DNA of 64,000 nt from a virus: UHGV virus genome UHGV-0167591, one strand, 5' to 3'. This document shows positions 2,184-59,972 of the stretch, piece by piece; within the stretch, counting starts at the first letter, position 1; the number at the start of each line of letters is the position of its first letter. The notes beneath the pieces are model-generated. The model did not search any database. It was given only the letters and a program-made list of their open reading frames with translations, and was not told the DNA's origin. Made by a program: the position numbers and the translations under genes.

Positions 2184-2624
2184 ATGGCCACATTATCTGA
2201 TACAATAAAACCGAATAAAACATATCTTGAGGCGGTGCTGCGTACGGCGTTGTTAGGAAAGACAGAAGACGAATACGTTGATTTCTTCCTGTCAGGGCTA
2301 CGCGGGCGATTACTGAAAAATCCCCGCCTGTACCGCAGCTATGGTCCATACTGGCCGGAAATTAAAAAATTATTACTGGAGCGCGGTTATGGTAATTTCG
2401 GTCGTCTCGTTGACCGTGACGTTCGCAAAATTTACCGTTATGACCGTCCGGCGCTGACGCTCATAGCCGCGACGCTCTACAGCCAGGAGCGTTTTGATAA
2501 TGGTCAGATATACTCAGCCTGGCATTTACTGCCAGTGCCTGAAGAGGTTGACGACCAGGACTATGAGTTTGAGTCTTACGATTTGGAAGTTGAAGCCTTG
2601 GCACAGGCTGGAGAGAAAACTTGA
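2184..2624 (+). CDS. Ulx-like protein (gene upstream of lxc), 146 aa
   Basis: ORF immediately upstream of and overlapping the lxc start (TTGA overlap); position matches P1 ulx; sequence identity not verifiable. Confidence 0.55.
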   Translation: MATLSDTIKPNKTYLEAVLRTALLGKTEDEYVDFFLSGLRGRLLKNPRLYRSYGPYWPEIKKLLLERGYGNFGRLVDRDVRKIYRYDRPALTLIAATLYSQERFDNGQIYSAWHLLPVPEEVDDQDYEFESYDLEVEALAQAGEKT

Positions 2625-2869
2625 AAAAGCGATACTACACAGTAAAGCATGGGACGCTACGAGCATTACAAGAGTTTGCTGATAAGCATAACGTTGAGGT
2701 GCGCAGGGAAGGGGGAAGTAAAGCTCTGCGCATGTACCGTCCGGACGGGAAATGGCGTACGGTCGTCGATTTCAAAACTAACAGCGTTCCCCAGGGCGTC
2801 CGCGACCGGGCATTCGAAGAATGGGAGCAGATCATCATAGATAATGCATTGCTCCTGAATGCTGATTGA
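2621..2869 (+). CDS. lxc: Lxc/Bof-like C1 co-repressor, 82 aa, TTG start
   Basis: 82 aa basic protein with TTG start overlapping upstream stop; size, start codon and position match my recollection of P1 bof/lxc. Confidence 0.55.
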   Translation: MKKRYYTVKHGTLRALQEFADKHNVEVRREGGSKALRMYRPDGKWRTVVDFKTNSVPQGVRDRAFEEWEQIIIDNALLLNAD

Positions 2870-2930
2870 TTTCCTGTTAGGTCACTTTATTTTTTAGAGT
2901 GGCCTAAATTACTCTTAATGAGGATGTGAT

Positions 2931-3881
2931 ATGAATGTTTTTATTGATACAAATCTATATTTGGAATTTTACAGGATGGGTAAAGATAAACTAGATGAGC
3001 TGGATAAAGTATTTGCCTTACATCAATATGGTCGTTTAAAACTTTGGTTACCAGAGCTTTTAGTGAATGAGTTCTGGAGGAATCGTTCTAAAGTTCTCTC
3101 TGAAACCATAAAGGAAATAACAAAAGATTATAAGCCCGCGCTTCCCCAGATTTTTAGGCAACATGAAAAGCATTCACAATTTAATGATAAGGTTATAGAA
3201 GCAGGTAGGTTAAAGAATGAAATTATTACAGATATCCAGAAATTGTTTAAAGAGGAGGCTTTGGCTGCCGATATTGTAATTAAAAGGATTTTTGATGCAG
3301 CATCTAAAATAGAGGCTGATGATGAAACAATAGATAAGGGGAAACTTCGATTTGATCTTGGAAACCCGCCTGGCAAAAATAAATCATATGGTGACGCAGT
3401 TAATTGGGAATGTTTGCTAAAAGCGATACCAGACGGTGAGGATATATATATCATAACTGAAGATGGTGATTATAAAAGTGCCTTTATAAAGGATGATATG
3501 AATGAATATTTGAAGCATGAGTGGAAAAAAAAGAAAAATTCAGAACCACATATCTATTCCCGCTTATCAGAGTTTATAGGCGAGCACTTTCCTCAAGCTA
3601 GTAACTTGGTGGAAATGGAAGTTAATCTCACTATAGATGAATTACGACACTCTGGCAGTTTTGCTACAACACATCGAGTTGTAGCAAAATTATTAAAGCT
3701 CACTCACTTTACACAAGAGCAAATCCTAAAAATAATTGATATTTATTTTGAAAATGATCAGGTTGGTTACATCAAAGATGATGATGATGTGAAACTTCTT
3801 GCCAGAAGACTAATATCATTAGGTGACGAGGATAAAGATCCTGAAGGGATGCTGGAGACATTCCGTGTATTTATTGATTAG
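2931..3881 (+). CDS. PIN-like domain protein (predicted nuclease), 316 aa; candidate defence/abortive-infection gene in the P1 res-mod slot
   Basis: N-terminal MNVFIDTN motif typical of PIN first strand; further acidic motifs (LPELLVNEF, GDAVNWE, IITEDGDY); strong SD GAGGA 8 nt upstream; visibly AT-rich versus flanks. Confidence 0.75.
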   Translation: MNVFIDTNLYLEFYRMGKDKLDELDKVFALHQYGRLKLWLPELLVNEFWRNRSKVLSETIKEITKDYKPALPQIFRQHEKHSQFNDKVIEAGRLKNEIITDIQKLFKEEALAADIVIKRIFDAASKIEADDETIDKGKLRFDLGNPPGKNKSYGDAVNWECLLKAIPDGEDIYIITEDGDYKSAFIKDDMNEYLKHEWKKKKNSEPHIYSRLSEFIGEHFPQASNLVEMEVNLTIDELRHSGSFATTHRVVAKLLKLTHFTQEQILKIIDIYFENDQVGYIKDDDDVKLLARRLISLGDEDKDPEGMLETFRVFID

Positions 3882-3887
3882 TATAAT

Positions 3888-3906
3888 GGGCGCATAGTTA
3901 GCGCCC
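3888..3906. terminator. Stem-loop between convergent genes (GGGCGC-atagtta-GCGCCC)
   Basis: Perfect 6 bp GC stem with 7 nt loop between the stops of the 2931-3881 and 3914-4555 genes; no strong U-tract. Confidence 0.35.
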
Positions 3907-3913
3907 AATAAGT

Positions 3914-4555
3914 TTAAAGATAATTATCTTTACCAGTTAATGAACCTTTAGGCACTTTCCGCGCGGCAATTTCATGAGTAGCTTGAATTATATTCACTAG
4001 GGGACTTAGTAACGACGTATCCTGATTGGCCTCAACTTCTCCTGCCATTGACCTGATGTAGTCGGCGCTGGCAACGTTGTTGTATTCCGTCGCAAAGCAA
4101 CATAGTAAGGTCAGAACATGCTCTGTCGTTATTTCGCTCCAGTTGATGTTGAAAAATTCATCGCCTTTTTTATCGTGTTCGGAATCGAAGATGCTTTGGT
4201 GGAGGATGTATTTGCCGGATTCCTTGCGCGGTAACTTGATTGCTTTCTGGCGTTCCAGCTCCTTATAAATCTGCATTGCTTCAATCAGTACCGGTCTGCC
4301 GTTCATGAAGGGATCACGCAACCTTACACGCTGGCCAACTCGACCGGTAATAAAGCTGTTTTCCTCTTCCACCAGCACGATAAAACCCTTTTCCTCTTTT
4401 TCTCGCAATTCGCGCAGCAGCTGGAGTTCCATATCGCGGCGGCGTTCAGGGTAGCTGGTCCGCTCAGCCATTATCAGCTCATTGTTGATCCATGCAGCAG
4501 TCATTGACGCCGGTTTGCCGACGCTCATTGAAACAACGCATATTTTCTTATCCAT
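3914..4555 (-). CDS. Hypothetical protein (213 aa) downstream of ref, in the position of P1 mat
   Basis: ORF on same strand as ref, about 190 bp downstream; ATG at 4555 chosen over upstream GTG at 4582; no recognisable motifs. Confidence 0.55.
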   Translation of the reverse strand: MDKKICVVSMSVGKPASMTAAWINNELIMAERTSYPERRRDMELQLLRELREKEEKGFIVLVEEENSFITGRVGQRVRLRDPFMNGRPVLIEAMQIYKELERQKAIKLPRKESGKYILHQSIFDSEHDKKGDEFFNINWSEITTEHVLTLLCCFATEYNNVASADYIRSMAGEVEANQDTSLLSPLVNIIQATHEIAARKVPKGSLTGKDNYL

Positions 4556-52398: not shown

Positions 52399-52908
52399 AT
52401 GGGGCACAATAACACTAAGGGAAACAGTAAATTTATTAAGGGCCGCTATACTGCCAACGCGGCCAAAGGCGAACGACTGGTATCTTCTGAATTCCAGCTC
52501 ACTTTTGCAGGCTATGAAGATATCAGTGTACTTGTTCGTACGTCGCAAATCCCTGAAATGACTCGCGAGGATGTGGAGGACTATGGTCCGAATGGTGTCA
52601 AGTTCAACCAGCACGGTCCAATTCGAAACTCTGGGGAAATCCAGGTCCAGTGCGTGGAGACTATCGAAGGCGATATTCTTCAGTTCATTAAAGATCGCAT
52701 TGCGGCGAAGGACTATGTTGATATCACGATGGCTGCGACCCCTGAATCCAAATCTTCCGGGGTTAACGCTGTGACAAAAGCTGCTACAACAATTGAAATG
52801 TTGGACTGCAAAATCTACAGTGATGCAATCGACTTTAGTACCGAAGATGTGACTGCCGCTGTGCGTCCGTCACTTCGTATCGTCTACAACTGGATTGAGT
52901 GGGATTAA
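52399..52908 (+). CDS. Putative tail/baseplate structural protein, 169 aa
   Basis: ORF with SD AAGGA; followed by a strong terminator. Confidence 0.5.
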   Translation: MGHNNTKGNSKFIKGRYTANAAKGERLVSSEFQLTFAGYEDISVLVRTSQIPEMTREDVEDYGPNGVKFNQHGPIRNSGEIQVQCVETIEGDILQFIKDRIAAKDYVDITMAATPESKSSGVNAVTKAATTIEMLDCKIYSDAIDFSTEDVTAAVRPSLRIVYNWIEWD

Positions 52909-52927
52909 GAGTCATCCCTTGTATTTT

Positions 52928-52951
52928 AAAGCTCCTTCGGGAGCTTTTTTG
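52928..52951. terminator. Rho-independent terminator
   Basis: AAAGCTCC-ttcg-GGAGCTTTTTT hairpin with U-tract. Confidence 0.85.
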
Positions 52952-52991
52952 TGCTTAAATTATGCCGGTATAGATAGATTTTGAGCATGTA

Positions 52992-53288
52992 ATGGAAATT
53001 GATTTCTCATACTCTCCTGAGACGATAGAAAGAAGATTCGAAATAATTGGATGCATAACTATTTCAGATGAGCATTATTGGATTCTCTATGATGCCAATA
53101 CATGGTTATGTGCCTTAGCAGAATGTCAGCCATCGTTATGTGTAGGGGAGGGGGCTTTTCGACATAAGGTGCTGGCTACACTTGAAGTGAACACGTTACG
53201 ATATTGGTGTGTAGAAATACTTAGTGATAACAAAGAATTGCATTTATTATTGCTGAATAAGTGTGCTTCTCTGCGCAGAAAAGCATGA
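52992..53288 (+). CDS. Hypothetical protein, 98 aa, AT-rich
   Basis: ORF in an AT-rich islet; no motifs recognised. Confidence 0.35.
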   Translation: MEIDFSYSPETIERRFEIIGCITISDEHYWILYDANTWLCALAECQPSLCVGEGAFRHKVLATLEVNTLRYWCVEILSDNKELHLLLLNKCASLRRKA

Positions 53289-53452
53289 GAAAACCCAACC
53301 GCTCTCCCGAATTATCAGAAGAATATGTGCGGAAAGTTATAGCTAGCTATTGAAAAGCTAAAGTAGATCGGTTAGAGTTGCCTTACTCATCTACCATGTG
53401 TAGAAAGAGCGATCGAACCCGATACATAGCAATATGTGTCGGGTTCAGCTTT

Positions 53453-53917
53453 TTATGTCCCAAGTGCTCTTTTTCTGCTTTGTTTGAGTGTTCTGATTTT
53501 ACTGTCATAGGTTACAACATAGGCTGTTTTGAGAAGCCAATAGTCTCTACGTGCGGATAGCACAACAACGTAGTTTTCACACTCATTCCAGATTACCCAC
53601 TCTTCAGTTGGTCCTCGTCTTTCAGACCAACATGATATATCGCAATGGTTATAATTCCTTATCATATGCGCGATCCAGCGAATTCGCTTGCACCGTTCAA
53701 GATCGGGTATACGTTCTTCTTCTATTTTTCCCTCTGATACTAAATGCCAAAATCCGAATTCTTTCCCATCATATTCCGGTGAATAACGTAATCGAACAGG
53801 GAGACCCTTAAACGTTATATTAGAGATTAAAATATCTTCTCTAACAACATCATATACATCGTCTATATACTCTTGCCAACTTCCATTGAAGTACAATAAA
53901 TCTGGCATTTGAAGCAT
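53453..53917 (-). CDS. Hypothetical protein, 154 aa; second gene of an AT-rich coupled pair (rlfB position)
   Basis: ATG 53917 preceded by GGAGG (7 nt spacing); start overlaps the upstream stop (TGATG). Confidence 0.6.
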   Translation of the reverse strand: MLQMPDLLYFNGSWQEYIDDVYDVVREDILISNITFKGLPVRLRYSPEYDGKEFGFWHLVSEGKIEEERIPDLERCKRIRWIAHMIRNYNHCDISCWSERRGPTEEWVIWNECENYVVVLSARRDYWLLKTAYVVTYDSKIRTLKQSRKRALGT

Positions 53918-54621
53918 CAACGAGCCTCCCACACGAAAATATTAAATTTACTTTCTGTTGGAAGAGTGCTTTTTAGTAACTCCCTGTTTGTATGTGATTT
54001 TATCCTATTTATGACTTGGATTTTTCCCGCGTTGCTATTCATTCCTCGATGAACGTAGCCTAACGCACCAATGAAAAGATCCGTTAGCTGCAATTGTTGC
54101 ACTTCATGAGATCGTATATGTTGAATTCTGTTTATCGACTCATGATTGTAATCATAGCGATCATTGTGAAGAACCCCTCTTAATTTCTCAATTTTTTCAA
54201 TACCTAAAGTATCTTTTATATCTAGGTAGATATTGTATGTGTTGTTACTTTCTATTATGTTTTTTAAGACATAAAAAAACATCTTATAATAGAAAGTATT
54301 ATGATCTTGATGGAATCGAGCATGGTCCAGTTGCTCTTTATCAGGAACAACAACACCTCTAAAGCGCAATGCTGGGTTGCTGAAGAAGTAATCTACGACA
54401 TCTAAGTAAAATTCAACTTTGGACGCAGATACTTTAGTCCACTTGATTTCGAAATCAGGTTTTAGATTGTGTTTTAATTTTAATTCCTTGATATCTCTAG
54501 CAATTTTTTTTGTGATAGTGCCAGGGCACCAAAGCGCACCCAATACCATGACTTTATTATGATCATTTAGTAGGTGACAGGATTCATCGCAGAATACATT
54601 AAATGTTCTTCGGTTCAACAT
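53917..54621 (-). CDS. Hypothetical protein with possible DUF3800-like N-terminus, 234 aa (rlfA position)
   Basis: N-terminal FNVFCDESCH motif; AT-rich; immediately downstream of repL on the same strand. Confidence 0.6.
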   Translation of the reverse strand: MLNRRTFNVFCDESCHLLNDHNKVMVLGALWCPGTITKKIARDIKELKLKHNLKPDFEIKWTKVSASKVEFYLDVVDYFFSNPALRFRGVVVPDKEQLDHARFHQDHNTFYYKMFFYVLKNIIESNNTYNIYLDIKDTLGIEKIEKLRGVLHNDRYDYNHESINRIQHIRSHEVQQLQLTDLFIGALGYVHRGMNSNAGKIQVINRIKSHTNRELLKSTLPTESKFNIFVWEAR

Positions 54622-54789
54622 GTTAACTCCACTTATTGTTAGGTAGAATTGTCCGTTAGTTGTTTATTAATTGCAATAATGGGACGTCCAGTTTTGGCAA
54701 CTGTGTCCTCTTACCAAGACGCCTATGAGTTCGCCTCATGGCAAACTAGAAGTGTTGAAAGTATGCATGGTTCTAATTAGAGCAATTTA

Positions 54790-55635
54790 TTAACCTCTGA
54801 ATCCTGCCGGTATACCCCATTGTTCGTTATCTTTATTTTTGGCTAAAACCGCATTAAGAGCTTCGTTTACCGTCATGCAATGCGGCAGATTATCGAAGTT
54901 TGATATCCCACCAATATCAGGAGAACGCTTGTTCTTCAGGTAAGCATATTTCCGCGCTGCCGCCTCTACTTTCTGCTTGAACTCATGTTTTTGAGCGCGT
55001 TTTTTGGATAACCGCAGATTGTCAGCCTTTGCTTTTGCCTCAGCGATCCATGAAGTCAATTTTTTGAGTCTGGTCGTTCCGGCACCGCCGGAAACTGATC
55101 TTTTTGTTTTTTTAACTTGTGACTTCTTATTCTTTATTGCCACGTCATCCTGACAGGGGGAGGGGGTATCATTTTGACATGGGGGTGTGGATAAAAAATC
55201 AAATAAAGCCAATGTCTTAGCGAGAACAGCTTTAACCTTGGTTGCGGCTGAAGAGATCTTTAATTTGCTTTCAGTCAGCGCGTTTTTAGCTTGTTGTGCG
55301 AAGGCCAAAAAGGATGGTGTAAACCGGTACAGGTTAGCGCGGCGTTCACGGTGATCGCCGATAACAATCTCTACAGACAGGATTCCTTTGTTTACAGCTT
55401 CACGGAATGCACGAACGACGGTTGATTGACTATAACCAGTTTCTGCCGCGATCAGGCGGTGAGGCTTGTGAATGAAGTATTCACTGGTTGTAGCCGCGAG
55501 ATTTGCACATTGCGACAGGATATACCCGGCGCTACGGGATAGACCGGAGTGTGTTACAAAGCAGGCCAATTCATAGCCAGAAAAAGTAAAATCGCTCATC
55601 GTTATACAGCTCAGGAAAGTGACTTTAGCCAGCAT
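54790..55635 (-). CDS. repL: RepL lytic replication initiator, 281 aa
   Basis: 281 aa, begins MLAKVTFLSCITMSDFTFSGYELACFVTHSGLSRSAGYILSQC; directly downstream of kilA as in P1. Confidence 0.88.
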   Translation of the reverse strand: MLAKVTFLSCITMSDFTFSGYELACFVTHSGLSRSAGYILSQCANLAATTSEYFIHKPHRLIAAETGYSQSTVVRAFREAVNKGILSVEIVIGDHRERRANLYRFTPSFLAFAQQAKNALTESKLKISSAATKVKAVLAKTLALFDFLSTPPCQNDTPSPCQDDVAIKNKKSQVKKTKRSVSGGAGTTRLKKLTSWIAEAKAKADNLRLSKKRAQKHEFKQKVEAAARKYAYLKNKRSPDIGGISNFDNLPHCMTVNEALNAVLAKNKDNEQWGIPAGFRG

Positions 55636-58399: not shown

Positions 58400-58600
58400 C
58401 TGCTACCCGCTGCTAAACAGGTGGCAGGACGTGACGGGGTTAGCAGACTGGCGTTAGTGAAACCAGCAGGCCGAAGCCTCCCCATCACGCCCCACCATAA
58501 TTTGGGCGTAACGCGGTTTTACGGACACAAAAATACCGCAATATCGGATATCTGCGGTTGTCCGCACTAACATTCAGGCTGCTAAACCCGGTCGCAGAAT
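58400..58600 (-). ncRNA. c4: immI leader region expected to encode the c4 antisense RNA (ends not determined)
   Basis: Non-coding interval between the operator and icd; direct repeat GCTGCTAAAC at 58409-58418 and 58578-58587 plus a near-complementary GTTAGCAG block. Confidence 0.35.
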
Positions 58601-58683
58601 TTGCTACGACGGCGGAACTATAAGCCTGAACGATTAAAAGGTCAATATGATGCGAAAAGATAGCATTCGCGACTTAAAAATAC

Positions 58684-58700
58684 AAATTTATTAGAGCATT
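58684..58700. promoter_or_regulatory. C1 operator upstream of immI (Op51-like)
   Basis: AAATTTATTAGAGCATT, 16/17 match. Confidence 0.7.
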
Positions 58701-58796
58701 AATTGTATAGTAAATACACAAATGGATCTAATAACCTCTTTTTTTTAAAGGCGAAAATATGTACCCTAAATGGGTTGTAAGGCAGGTGAGGTTATA

Positions 58797-59444
58797 ATGA
58801 GAAAACTATTATTACCGTTATTATTTATGGCTGGGACTGTTAATGCAGCATCAAGTGTAAAGGAGATTTGTACCGATTATACGAAATACCTTGGGCACGT
58901 TTACGGCTTTGCTGTCAGTCAAGACGAATCCATGCGCAAGAAGTTACTGTCAGATATGAAACGTCTTAAACTTTCTGAAGCGATGGTGCAGCAAGAACTA
59001 TATAAAGTCGCAACCAACGAAAATGCTAAATATCAATATTCTCGCCTATTAAATCCCGACGCAAACGAGATCAATCGAAGCACTTTCGATTATATGGTAA
59101 AGGCATGCGAAACCGCTCCTGATTTTGCTATCCCTAGCTGGGGTGTGCTGGTGGCGAGCAATGCCGTTAATAAAGAAGATGTTGGAAGAAATGGCATTGA
59201 CTCAATCAGAAATGCCCCAGGAATGCGCCATCAAAGCGTGCAGAGTACGCTTGAAGAGCGGGCCAGGGGGCCGGGTACAAACTCCCCAATGGGAAACCTC
59301 TCACCAGAGGAATTGCAAGAGTATAACCAACGGATGGAGCAGTATGAGAAAGCGGCACGCGAACAAATGGAACAACAAAAGAACGGCTCACTTAATACCT
59401 TCCAGCAAGGTTTAAAGGCGCTTAATTTACCATATGAATGGTGA
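58797..59444 (+). CDS. Secreted protein with signal peptide, about 215 aa
   Basis: MRKLLLPLLFMAGTVNAASS signal peptide; ATG preceded by GGTGAGG. Confidence 0.55.
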   Translation: MRKLLLPLLFMAGTVNAASSVKEICTDYTKYLGHVYGFAVSQDESMRKKLLSDMKRLKLSEAMVQQELYKVATNENAKYQYSRLLNPDANEINRSTFDYMVKACETAPDFAIPSWGVLVASNAVNKEDVGRNGIDSIRNAPGMRHQSVQSTLEERARGPGTNSPMGNLSPEELQEYNQRMEQYEKAAREQMEQQKNGSLNTFQQGLKALNLPYEW

Positions 59445-59495
59445 ATATATGGTGGTTAACTAATTAAAATATTAATATCCAAAGGAGATAAATTA

Positions 59496-59972
59496 ATGCA
59501 CATCAAACGATTTTTTCTAATTCTTGCTTTGCTTACTCCTTTTTCGTCAATGGCAAATGTAAGCAAATGGTCAACCAGCGAGACTCATGGTGTTCGTTCT
59601 TATGCTGTTTCCAGCAAAGATAATTATACGCTTACATTTGAGTGCGATGTTGGATTTAATAATACGGATCCCAATCAAGTAGGAACACGACTACTCACTC
59701 TCATGAAAACAGAACCTGGCGGTGAGTCATTTGATGCTAAAAAAGAACAAATAACGCTGAAAGTTGGTGATGATGAATATCCTATCAGTTCTATCGGTTC
59801 CTCTGTGGGTGATAGTTACTGGTATGGTTTCTGGTCAGATACCCCTGATATGGAAGTTAAAACATTCGATGCATACGTAGACGGAAAAAAAATCGCAACA
59901 TTTACGCTACGTAAGGCCGCAGAGCTTTTCAACGCGGCACCTAAAGATGGCTGCCTGAAGCGCGCAAAATGA
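59496..59972 (+). CDS. Secreted protein with signal peptide, 158 aa
   Basis: MHIKRFFLILALLTPFSSMA signal peptide; SD AGGAG. Confidence 0.55.
   Translation: MHIKRFFLILALLTPFSSMANVSKWSTSETHGVRSYAVSSKDNYTLTFECDVGFNNTDPNQVGTRLLTLMKTEPGGESFDAKKEQITLKVGDDEYPISSIGSSVGDSYWYGFWSDTPDMEVKTFDAYVDGKKIATFTLRKAAELFNAAPKDGCLKRAK

What the first reader, a model, noticed from the sequence alone, without database searches (positions are those of the whole stretch)
53453..54621. AT-rich, translationally coupled two-gene module downstream of repL
Two minus-strand genes (234 aa and 154 aa) overlap in a TGATG junction, with a GGAGG SD for the second gene embedded in the end of the first. The first protein has an N-terminal FNVFCDESCH motif reminiscent of DUF3800-type proteins. 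The module sits in a distinctly AT-rich islet between the tail gene terminator (52928-52951) and repL. Position corresponds to the P1 rlfA/rlfB genes of unknown function, and the composition and tight coupling suggest a horizontally acquired toxin-like or defence-like pair.
Basis: partly seen in the sequence, partly recalled or inferred. Interest (0 to 1): 0.55.

Follow-up and report, generated by a model that had tools for sequence, protein, structure and literature searches.

The report
P1 rlfAB pair plus hidden sRNA
The two coupled genes are the known phage P1 genes rlfA/rlfB (an RNase H-like nuclease and a small partner, listed as an untested anti-phage defence candidate), but they turn out to travel with an unannotated, highly conserved small RNA gene that many other phages carry on its own.

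Summary
Two minus-strand genes of 234 and 154 aa overlap in TGATG with an embedded GGAGG, and their GC is 36% against 48% for the window. They are P1 rlfA/rlfB (P7 rapA/rapB). RlfA is a DUF3800 protein with a type-2 RNase H fold and all its acidic motif residues. RlfB is an orphan family whose resemblance to RelE/colicin D-type RNases is weak. Together they match PADLOC candidate PDC-M04, which is untested. In about a third of chromosomal loci the pair sits inside type I restriction-modification operons. P1 does not need either gene for lytic growth.

The new result is a third part. A roughly 72-nt structured small RNA gene lies at 53385-53457 on the plus strand, convergent with rlfB, with its own promoter and terminator. 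It is present in every complete rlfAB locus I examined, across many phyla. Its structure is supported by covariation. It matches no Rfam 15 family and is unannotated in P1, P7 and SPbeta. Copies without rlfAB are enriched in phage genomes, often inside tRNA arrays.

My best reading is an RNA-controlled, toxin-antitoxin-like defence or addiction module, with the phage copies acting as mimics. Function and mechanism are inferred, not shown.

The parts
53917..54621 (-). rlfA (P7 rapA): 234-aa DUF3800 protein with a type-2 RNase H-like fold
53453..53917 (-). rlfB (P7 rapB): 154-aa partner protein of an orphan family, translationally coupled to rlfA
53915..53929 (-). Coupling junction: GGAGG (53929-53925), 7-nt spacer, TGATG (53919-53915)
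   Evidence: Read from the sequence. Overlaps of -1 or -4 occur in 51 of 78 homologous loci.
53385..53457 (+). Unannotated structured small RNA gene of about 72 nt, convergent with rlfB. 5' hairpin at 53386-53409 (CUCAUCUACCAUGUGUAGAAAGAG), linker, terminator hairpin at 53415-53446, and a U-tract at 53450-53454 that overlaps the rlfB stop codon.
   Evidence: Covariance model R1 hit at 53382-53458 (+), 73 bits, E 3e-17. The exact 24-nt motif occurs once in the window with 0 expected. In the 66-sequence alignment 97.0% of cells are paired against 84.8% in shuffles (0/500), and 14 of 18 pairs show changes on both sides. For strand choice, 97.0% of cells pair on this strand (9.2% G.U) against 88.5% on the rlfB strand. 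MFE is -29.8 kcal/mol, z -6.6. A plus-strand terminator is called here. No Rfam 15 match.
53350..53378 (+). Promoter of the small RNA: -35 TTGAAA (53350-53355), 17-nt spacer, -10 TAGAGT (53373-53378); start at about 53385
   Evidence: Promoter scan. With 86 loci from many phyla anchored on the RNA 5' end, a TTGACA-like box sits at -37..-32, a TATAAT-like box at -14..-9, and a purine at -2 in 77 of 86.
54770..54786 (-). C1 repressor operator (P1 Orlf/Op55 equivalent, ATTGCTCTAATTAGAAC) between the repL stop and rlfA
   Evidence: P1 annotates a 17-bp C1 operator 4 nt after repL. The window sequence differs from it at one base. Whether it controls rlfAB was not tested.
52992..53288 (+). pmgF: a 98-aa ORF that shares the low-GC islet. 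It is cargo of the same variable slot, not a conserved part of the module.
   Evidence: GC 38%. No family match beyond phage families of unknown function. Absent from homologous loci outside P1-like phages. Replaced together with rlfAB in other P1-like elements.

Best explanation
The locus is a mobile three-part module: RlfA (a DUF3800 nuclease with a type-2 RNase H fold), RlfB (a small partner made in step with it by translational coupling), and a dedicated small RNA of about 72 nt transcribed convergently from its own promoter. I think it most likely works as an RNA-controlled toxin-antitoxin-type system. That would serve anti-phage abortive infection in bacterial chromosomes and, on the P1 plasmid prophage, exclusion of competitors and/or plasmid addiction. 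In this model the small RNA is made continuously and binds RlfB and/or RlfA, holding the nuclease activity in check. When an infecting phage shuts off host transcription or destroys or displaces the RNA, the proteins are released and cut nucleic acid. Candidate targets are the RNA strand of RNA:DNA hybrids or structured RNA for RlfA, and possibly tRNA or mRNA for RlfB. Phages that carry the RNA alone would be supplying a mimic that keeps the system silent. SHOWN here: the three parts exist, they are co-inherited across phyla, the RNA is structured and independently transcribed judging from its promoter and terminator signals, RlfA keeps its acidic motif residues, chromosomal copies sit in R-M operons and defence islands, and RNA-only copies are enriched in phages. 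INFERRED: any binding, any toxicity, any anti-phage effect, and the direction of control (inhibitor rather than guide or activator).
For: Gene identity and families. RlfA fold and invariant D12/E13/D134/D181. Strict A-to-B order in 111 of 112 loci, with the one exception cut by a contig end. Coupling conserved. Wide, patchy spread typical of mobile defence or TA genes: 477 of 185,579 species genomes across Proteobacteria, Nitrospirota, Planctomycetota, Saccharibacteria, Chloroflexota, Bacteroidota and Cyanobacteria, and 1,791 clusters at 50% identity. Embedded in type I R-M: Methylase_S 14, N6_Mtase 9, HSDR_N 11 of 42 loci; PADLOC MTase_I 18, Specificity_I 16, REase_I 11; other neighbours include DarT, SymE, AAA_15 and PDC-S05. 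Not needed for P1 lytic growth (PMC10695390). The slot is variable and low-GC in P1-like elements, as are res/mod and sim (PMC9603915). The small RNA gives one strong hit directly after rlfB in all 80 genome loci and in 29 of 32 viral loci, where the three misses are a contig end or a truncated rlfB. It gives no hit in the three P1-like phages that lack rlfAB. Covariation, strand and promoter. The RNA acts in trans rather than as a cis-antisense: its orientation is flipped in L107, L109 and L112, and orphan copies exist. Orphans are enriched in viral contigs: 89 of 116 against 21 of 105 in metagenomes, OR 13.2, p 9e-18. 24 of 69 distinct orphan contexts lie in same-strand tRNA arrays. Orphan copies occur in SPbeta, phi3T and Vibrio phages and in an E. 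coli satellite- or prophage-like element. Precedents: DUF3800 is the effector of type VII retrons, next to a structured nucleic acid (PMC7736814). DUF3800 genes associate with 11 other ncRNA motifs (PMC5737381). From my own knowledge, phage phiTE escapes ToxIN by carrying a pseudo-ToxI RNA.
Confidence: 0.45

Rival explanations
1. The small RNA is not an inhibitor but a working partner of the nuclease: a guide, scaffold, activator or substrate. RlfB would bind or process it, and RlfA, whose RNase H fold is shared with PIWI and RuvC nucleases, would use it to find or cut a target.
Against: The RNA has no variable, spacer-like segment. Apart from the terminator stem, whose sequence varies only with compensation, everything is conserved. 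Nothing suggests a way to acquire programmable targeting. Orphan copies in phages are harder to explain for a guide than for an inhibitor.
Confidence: 0.2
2. This is mainly a plasmid-addiction (post-segregational killing) module for the P1 prophage plasmid. A short-lived RNA antitoxin and stable protein toxin(s) would kill cells that lose P1.
For: P1 is maintained as a low-copy plasmid. 123 of 128 places in E. coli complete genomes are on plasmids. The tightly coupled proteins plus a separately transcribed convergent RNA recall type I and type III TA layouts.
Against: Most family members are chromosomal and lie inside R-M operons, not on plasmids. Many P1-like phage-plasmids lack the module. 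From my own knowledge P1 already has phd-doc. This rival overlaps the best explanation rather than excluding it.
Confidence: 0.15
3. The original annotation is right: rlfA/rlfB are accessory factors of P1 lytic replication. For example, an RNase H-type enzyme could process the transcript or R-loop that activates oriL inside repL.
For: The genes lie directly downstream of kilA-repL in the same orientation, with a C1 operator between them. They are co-regulated with repL early in P1vir infection. RNase H enzymes act on RNA:DNA hybrids. PHROGs and RefSeq name RlfB 'replication protein', a name inherited from P1.
Against: Both genes are non-essential in the CRISPRi screen. They are absent from many P1-like elements that keep repL. 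None of the 42 chromosomal loci with full flanks shows a replication-gene neighbourhood; the recurring neighbours are R-M genes. Low GC marks the region as foreign cargo. A replication role does not explain the conserved RNA or its orphan copies.
Confidence: 0.07
4. The conserved element after rlfB is only a shared bidirectional terminator or a DNA-level site such as a recombination or mobility site, not a functional RNA.
For: It contains a hairpin that can terminate both convergent transcripts. The module is mobile.
Against: The best-conserved part is the 5' hairpin outside the terminator. A positioned -35/-10 promoter is conserved across phyla. G.U pairs are tolerated on one strand only. The loop of hairpin 1 accepts long insertions that keep the stem. 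The element occurs alone in tRNA arrays on the tRNA strand.
Confidence: 0.05

Closest known systems
Phage P1 rlfA/rlfB (P7 rapA/rapB), 'replication-linked function' genes
   Same: The same genes: 97.8-98.1% nucleotide identity, and the same position between repL and pmgF/bplB.
   Different: Nothing differs in the proteins. The P1 and P7 records annotate no RNA gene between rlfB and pmgF, and the 'replication' label rests on position only.
PADLOC phage defence candidate PDC-M04 (Payne et al., bioRxiv 10.1101/2024.01.29.577857)
   Same: Both proteins hit the A and B models at 1e-95 and 1.8e-51. I reproduced the embedding in type I R-M operons independently.
   Different: PDC-M04 is defined as two proteins and is untested. 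Here it is carried by a phage-plasmid away from any R-M operon, and it has a third, RNA component.
DUF3800-associated RNA motifs DUF3800-I to -XI (Weinberg et al. 2017, PMC5737381; Rfam RF02969, RF02968 and others)
   Same: A structured RNA sits next to a DUF3800 gene, in either orientation, and ends in an intrinsic terminator.
   Different: No Rfam 15 model matches, even with a 131-base query at E up to 10. I could not read the paper's supplement, so I cannot rule out identity with a motif that never entered Rfam.
Type VII retrons (RT + msDNA + DUF3800 effector; Mestre et al. 2020, PMC7736814)
   Same: A DUF3800 protein with the N-terminal DE motif is paired with a dedicated structured nucleic acid in a defence-type locus.
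   Different: There is no reverse transcriptase. RlfA keeps the QxxD motif that the retron proteins lack. The partner is RlfB plus an ordinary transcript.
Type III toxin-antitoxin / abortive infection systems (ToxIN, CptIN, TenpIN)
   Same: The proposed logic is the same: an RNA made from the locus restrains a nuclease, and phages escape by carrying the RNA. This comparison rests on my own knowledge.
   Different: The RNA is a single copy, not tandem repeats. It is transcribed convergently from its own promoter. The proteins are not ToxN/Kid-like. None of the logic has been tested.
PrrC/EcoprrI anticodon nuclease embedded in a type I R-M operon
   Same: An RNase-type accessory nested in a type I R-M operon, as in about a third of the chromosomal loci here.
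   Different: No sequence or fold relationship was found, and the P1 copy is not next to any R-M genes.

Membership tests
Pfam DUF3800 (PF12686) | Profile match above the curated gathering score | tested here: met
   54.2 bits against a cut-off of 21, E 3.5e-14, profile positions 1-148 of 149.
Pfam DUF3800 (PF12686) | N-terminal DE motif and C-terminal QxxD motif (as described in PMC7736814) | tested here: met
   D12-E13 and Q178-x-x-D181 are invariant in 27 homologues.
Pfam DUF3800 (PF12686) | RNase H-like fold | tested here: met
Type 2 RNase H (RNase HII/HIII) | Sequence-level membership and a proven DEDD active site acting on RNA:DNA hybrids | tested here: inconclusive
   The fold matches, and four invariant acidic residues lie at the end of strand 1, after strand 4 and in a helix. 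No RNase H Pfam or PDB sequence hit was found. I could not superpose residues because model coordinates are not exported. Activity was not tested.
PADLOC PDC-M04 | Adjacent same-strand genes matching the M04A and M04B models | tested here: met
   1e-95 and 1.8e-51; the genes overlap by one base.
PADLOC PDC-M04 | Demonstrated anti-phage activity | not testable with these tools
   The authors list PDC systems as untested candidates. No paper in the library names PDC-M04.
RelE/ParE-colicin D (BECR-fold) RNase toxins, for RlfB | Significant structural or sequence similarity and the family's catalytic residues | tested here: inconclusive
Type III toxin-antitoxin | Tandem-repeat RNA antitoxin upstream of, and co-transcribed with, a ToxN-like endoRNase | tested here: not met
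   The RNA is a single copy, convergent, with its own promoter. Tandem second copies appear in only a few loci (L007, L057, L078, SPbeta). The proteins are unrelated to ToxN.
Type I toxin-antitoxin | Antisense RNA overlapping the mRNA of a small hydrophobic toxin peptide | tested here: not met
   Only the U-tract overlaps the rlfB stop codon. The orientation is reversed in three loci. RlfB is a 154-aa soluble-looking alpha/beta protein.
Rfam DUF3800-x, drum and skipping-rope RNA families | Covariance-model match | tested here: not met
   No hit at gathering score or at E up to 10 in the window, in a 131-base excerpt, or in 26 other loci.
Retron (type VII) | Reverse transcriptase and msr/msd next to the DUF3800 gene | tested here: not met
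   No reverse-transcriptase domain is among the 25 commonest Pfam families of the four nearest flanking ORFs in 42 loci. In P1 the neighbours are repL and pmgF.

The most novel reading that the evidence does not exclude
The roughly 72-nt RNA is the control element (antitoxin or switch) of a widespread, so far unrecognised class of RNA-governed RNase H-like defence systems. Phages from Gram-negative and Gram-positive hosts (P1-host satellite-like elements, SPbeta, Vibrio phages, large phages with tRNA arrays) carry orphan copies as an RNA-mimicry counter-defence. Classical phage P1 would then hold both a new defence system and a new small RNA that have been missed since its 2004 annotation.
Probability: 0.3. 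Interest if true: 0.8.

Novelty: new variant of a known kind. Interest (0 to 1): 0.6.

Why it matters
The gene pair alone is old news: it was annotated in P1 in 2004 and is listed as a PADLOC candidate. Three things here may be useful.

1. The results link a textbook phage to an untested defence candidate. P1 and E. coli therefore become a ready genetic system for testing PDC-M04.

2. The system has an RNA component that protein-based defence finders cannot see. Anyone cloning only the two genes may get a toxic or inactive construct.

3. The same RNA, without the proteins, is common in phage genomes and phage tRNA arrays, and occurs in SPbeta. This suggests an RNA-level arms race. It also gives a first functional lead for the long-standing puzzle of why DUF3800 genes keep company with structured RNAs.

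Tried and rejected
RlfB family searches: Pfam, NCBIfam and PDB sequence searches, both single sequence and profile, gave nothing. The only faint signal was a YefM-type antitoxin at E 1.2, which I treated as noise.

Rfam: five scans at several stringencies gave no family for the RNA.

Literature: the P1 genome paper (tried as PMC523184, an id recalled from memory) and the Weinberg supplement are not held. One preprint that mentions DUF3800 could not be opened. No paper mentions PDC-M04, an RNA between rlfB and pmgF, or a function for DUF3800-I, drum or skipping-rope.

Is the bplB-repL slot a dedicated defence hotspot? Not supported. Other P1-like phages carry Lom, a transposase or unknown ORFs there.

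Is there a protein partner for the orphan RNA copies? No family is shared by more than 13 of 69 contexts, and no RlfA/RlfB relatives appear even at E 10.

Other readings of the RNA considered and dropped:
- A small ORF or CreT-like rare-codon trap (AUG UGU AGA AGG). The codons change along with the compensatory stem changes, so the structure is what is conserved, not the coding.
- A tRNA-like element. ARAGORN does not call it.
- A cis-antisense regulator of rlfB. The orientation flips in three loci, and orphan copies exist.

Full report
1. THE OBSERVATION

The two minus-strand ORFs are real: 54621..53917 (234 aa) and 53917..53453 (154 aa). The stop of the first and the start of the second share one base in TGATG (53919-53915). 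A GGAGG lies 7 nt upstream, at 53929-53925.

The pair has 36.3% GC against 47.7% for the window. Only 0.8% of windows of the same length are as low, and GC3 is 0.32-0.33 against 0.43-0.50 for repL, kilA and bplB. The low-GC islet runs about 52741-55380 and includes the 98-aa pmgF ORF.

The whole stretch is 97.8% identical to P1 (rlfA, rlfB, pmgF) and 98.1% identical to P7 (rapA, rapB).

2. THE PROTEINS

In 27 homologues down to 52% identity, the DE motif (D12, E13), D134/D137 and the QxxD motif (Q178, D181) are invariant. The protein therefore looks like an active metal-dependent nuclease. This agrees with what the literature says about DUF3800.

RlfB has no Pfam, NCBIfam or PDB sequence relatives. 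RefSeq calls it 'oxidoreductase', 'replication protein' or 'hypothetical', or does not call the gene at all. PHROGs repeats 'replication protein'. These names have no visible basis.

An exhaustive profile search finds 1,791 clusters of stand-alone proteins of 150-190 aa. Across 51 distant members P5, F56 and H58 are invariant, and K52, W57, R69, R75, C76, R78, W81 and W97 are nearly so. That pattern fits an RNA-binding or RNase site.

3. THE PAIR AS A UNIT

Both proteins hit PADLOC candidate PDC-M04 (1e-95 and 1.8e-51). PDC systems are 145 candidates that were proposed because they sit inside BREX, DISARM or type I R-M operons, and none has been tested.

I checked the association independently. 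Relatives of RlfB occur in 477 of 185,579 species genomes, across many phyla. A DUF3800 gene lies directly upstream on the same strand in 79 of 80 loci fetched, with the exception cut by a contig end, and in 32 of 32 viral loci. In 51 of 78 loci the genes overlap by 1 or 4 bases. RlfA is more conserved than RlfB in 74 of 78 loci.

Among 42 loci with full flanks, the two ORFs upstream include a type I specificity subunit in 14-16 loci and a methylase in 9-18. The two ORFs downstream include the restriction subunit in 11. Other neighbours include DarT, SymE, AAA_15 and further PADLOC candidates.

4. THE SETTING IN P1

A CRISPRi screen scored rlfA and rlfB as non-essential for P1 lytic growth (PMC10695390).

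The rlfA-rlfB-pmgF region is one of eight variable, low-GC regions of P1-like phage-plasmids, alongside res/mod and sim (PMC9603915). In other P1-like elements it is replaced by other cargo: a toxin gene, a transposase, Lom, or unknown ORFs.

In E. coli, 121 of 5,426 complete genomes carry the pair, almost always on plasmids.

P1 annotates a C1 operator just after repL. The window keeps it at 54770-54786 with one base changed. In P1vir infection the genes behave like early genes alongside repL. Whether they are expressed in lysogens is unknown. This is the main gap for a defence reading.

5. THE UNEXPECTED THIRD PART

DUF3800 genes are known to sit near structured RNAs (PMC5737381), so I compared the DNA after the rlfB stop codon across loci. 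It is conserved at the nucleotide level between phyla.

Read on the strand opposite to rlfB, it is a small RNA gene with these features:
- A sigma-70 promoter. The window has TTGAAA at 53350-53355 and TAGAGT at 53373-53378. In 86 loci the -35 and -10 boxes and a purine start are conserved in position.
- A 5' hairpin, CUCAUCUACCAUGUGUAGAAGGAG-like, at window 53386-53409.
- A short linker.
- A GC-rich hairpin of variable sequence followed by a U-run, at window 53415-53454. The scan calls this a plus-strand terminator.

RNAalifold predicts exactly these two helices. In 66 distinct copies, 97.0% of pair cells are standard pairs, against 84.8% after shuffling (0 of 500 shuffles reach it) and 38-51% when partners are slid. 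14 of 18 pairs show changes on both sides.

G.U pairs make up 9.2% of cells on this strand. On the rlfB strand they would be mismatches, leaving 88.5% paired, which fixes the transcribed strand. The window copy folds at -29.8 kcal/mol, z -6.6.

A covariance model finds one strong hit (40-82 bits) directly after rlfB in all 80 genome loci and in 29 of 32 viral loci. The three misses are a contig end and two truncated rlfB genes. There is no hit in three P1-like phages that lack rlfAB. The window hit is 53382-53458 (+), 73 bits.

No Rfam 15 family matches at any stringency I tried. The P1, P7 and SPbeta records annotate nothing there.

6. ORPHAN COPIES

The exact 24-nt core occurs in 117 viral contigs. 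Of the 116 stretches read, only 27 have rlfA/rlfB next to the motif; 89 do not, even at permissive thresholds. The model matches these orphan copies over their full length (32-68 bits), again with covariation in the second helix.

24 of 69 distinct orphan contexts lie among same-strand tRNA genes, in arrays of up to 37 tRNAs. No protein family accompanies them consistently.

Named phages with orphan copies include Bacillus SPbeta (two tandem copies in the unannotated yonN-yonK gap), phi3T and two Vibrio phages. In E. coli, 53 further records carry a chromosomal variant 80-90% identical to the P1 RNA. The one example I inspected sits at the edge of a capsid-encoding satellite- or prophage-like element with no DUF3800 gene within 6 kb.

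In an unselected metagenome sample the proportions are reversed: 84 copies linked to rlfA/B, 21 orphan-type and 15 undecidable. The difference from the viral contigs is strong (odds ratio 13.2, p 9e-18).

7. INTERPRETATION

Well supported:
- The unit has three parts.
- It is mobile.
- In bacteria it keeps the company of restriction systems.
- The RNA acts in trans, because its orientation can flip (L107, L109, L112) and it exists without the genes.

Inferred: the function. I favour an RNA-restrained nuclease system of the toxin-antitoxin or abortive-infection kind, with phage-borne orphan RNAs acting as mimics (confidence 0.45). The reasoning is by analogy with type VII retrons, where DUF3800 is paired with msDNA, and with ToxIN and pseudo-ToxI, which I cite from my own knowledge.

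The main rival is that the RNA is a cofactor or guide rather than an inhibitor (0.2). A pure plasmid-addiction role (0.15) overlaps the favoured model. The historical 'replication-linked' role (0.07) is poorly supported by the non-essentiality, the patchy presence in P1-like elements and the non-replicative neighbourhoods. The 'mere terminator or DNA site' reading (0.05) is contradicted by the promoter, the strand-specific G.U pairs and the copies inside tRNA arrays.

8. NOVELTY AND CAVEATS

The genes themselves are known, and the defence candidacy is already in PADLOC. The low GC and variability are published.

As far as Rfam 15 and the held literature show, the RNA is new, as is its near-universal linkage to the pair and its orphan distribution in phages. 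It is a new variant within a known theme, DUF3800 genes with structured RNAs.

Caveats:
- I could not read the Weinberg supplement, so the RNA could be a motif that never entered Rfam.
- The orphan counts rest on an exact 24-nt pattern and on collections capped at 117-120 rows.
- All functional statements are untested.

Noticed in passing
window 2931-3881 (+), within the low-GC islet 2461-4440: A 316-aa ORF with a PIN domain (Pfam PIN_12 1.9e-16, PIN_8 1.7e-13) and a weak C-terminal PADLOC hit (PDC-S34 1.2e-11). Only phage JL22 shares the whole stretch. In SJ46 and vB_EcoM-673R5 the same mat-lxc slot holds a 'RelA/SpoT family protein', which from my own knowledge is the CapRel(SJ46) defence gene. 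This looks like a second swap site for defence-type cargo in P1-like phage-plasmids.
   Followed up: partly
window 58611-59840 (ORFs 58770-59444 and 59496-59972, +), next to C4 RNA at 58417-58502 and its a1/b1 target at 58571-58623 (-): A third low-GC islet at the position of the P1 sim (superimmunity) genes. It has no PADLOC hit and only a marginal Pfam hit.
   Followed up: no
L233 3000-3054 and 3059-3127 (Bacillus phage SPBc2/SPbeta NC_001884, around 59.5-59.66 kb): Two tandem orphan copies of the small RNA lie in a 1.7-kb unannotated gap between yonN and yonK. The same motif is present in phi3T and in the Goe11-14 and SPbetaL phages.
   Followed up: partly
L355 6001-6071 (E. coli NZ_CP033635 2380519-2380589): An orphan RNA copy about 85% identical to the P1 RNA sits at the end of a capsid/head-decoration/PerC/SSB element inserted beside a truncated autoinducer-2 transporter gene. 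53 E. coli records carry this chromosomal variant.
   Followed up: partly
L203, L230, L184 and other IMG/VR loci: Orphan RNA copies are embedded between tRNA genes on the same strand in large phage tRNA arrays of 11-37 tRNAs. In L142 the copy begins 4 nt after a tRNA 3' CCA end.
   Followed up: partly
L007 10589-10668, L057 10531-10601, L078 10446-10522: Weak second copies of the RNA lie next to the main copy in a few bacterial loci (18-29 bits), so occasional tandem duplication occurs.
   Followed up: no
L101, L102 (IMG/VR P1-like contigs): rlfB is truncated after residue 82 while rlfA is intact, and the RNA is not detected. This is a natural partial deletion of the module.
   Followed up: no
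RefSeq, GenBank and PHROG annotation of rlfB homologues: rlfB is variously named 'oxidoreductase', 'replication protein' or 'hypothetical protein', or is left uncalled in many E. coli plasmid records. No profile supports any of these names.
   Followed up: yes
window 35475-35547, 36983-37055, 37061-37133 (-): Three tRNA genes, as expected for a P1-like phage. The small RNA is not near them in this genome.
   Followed up: no
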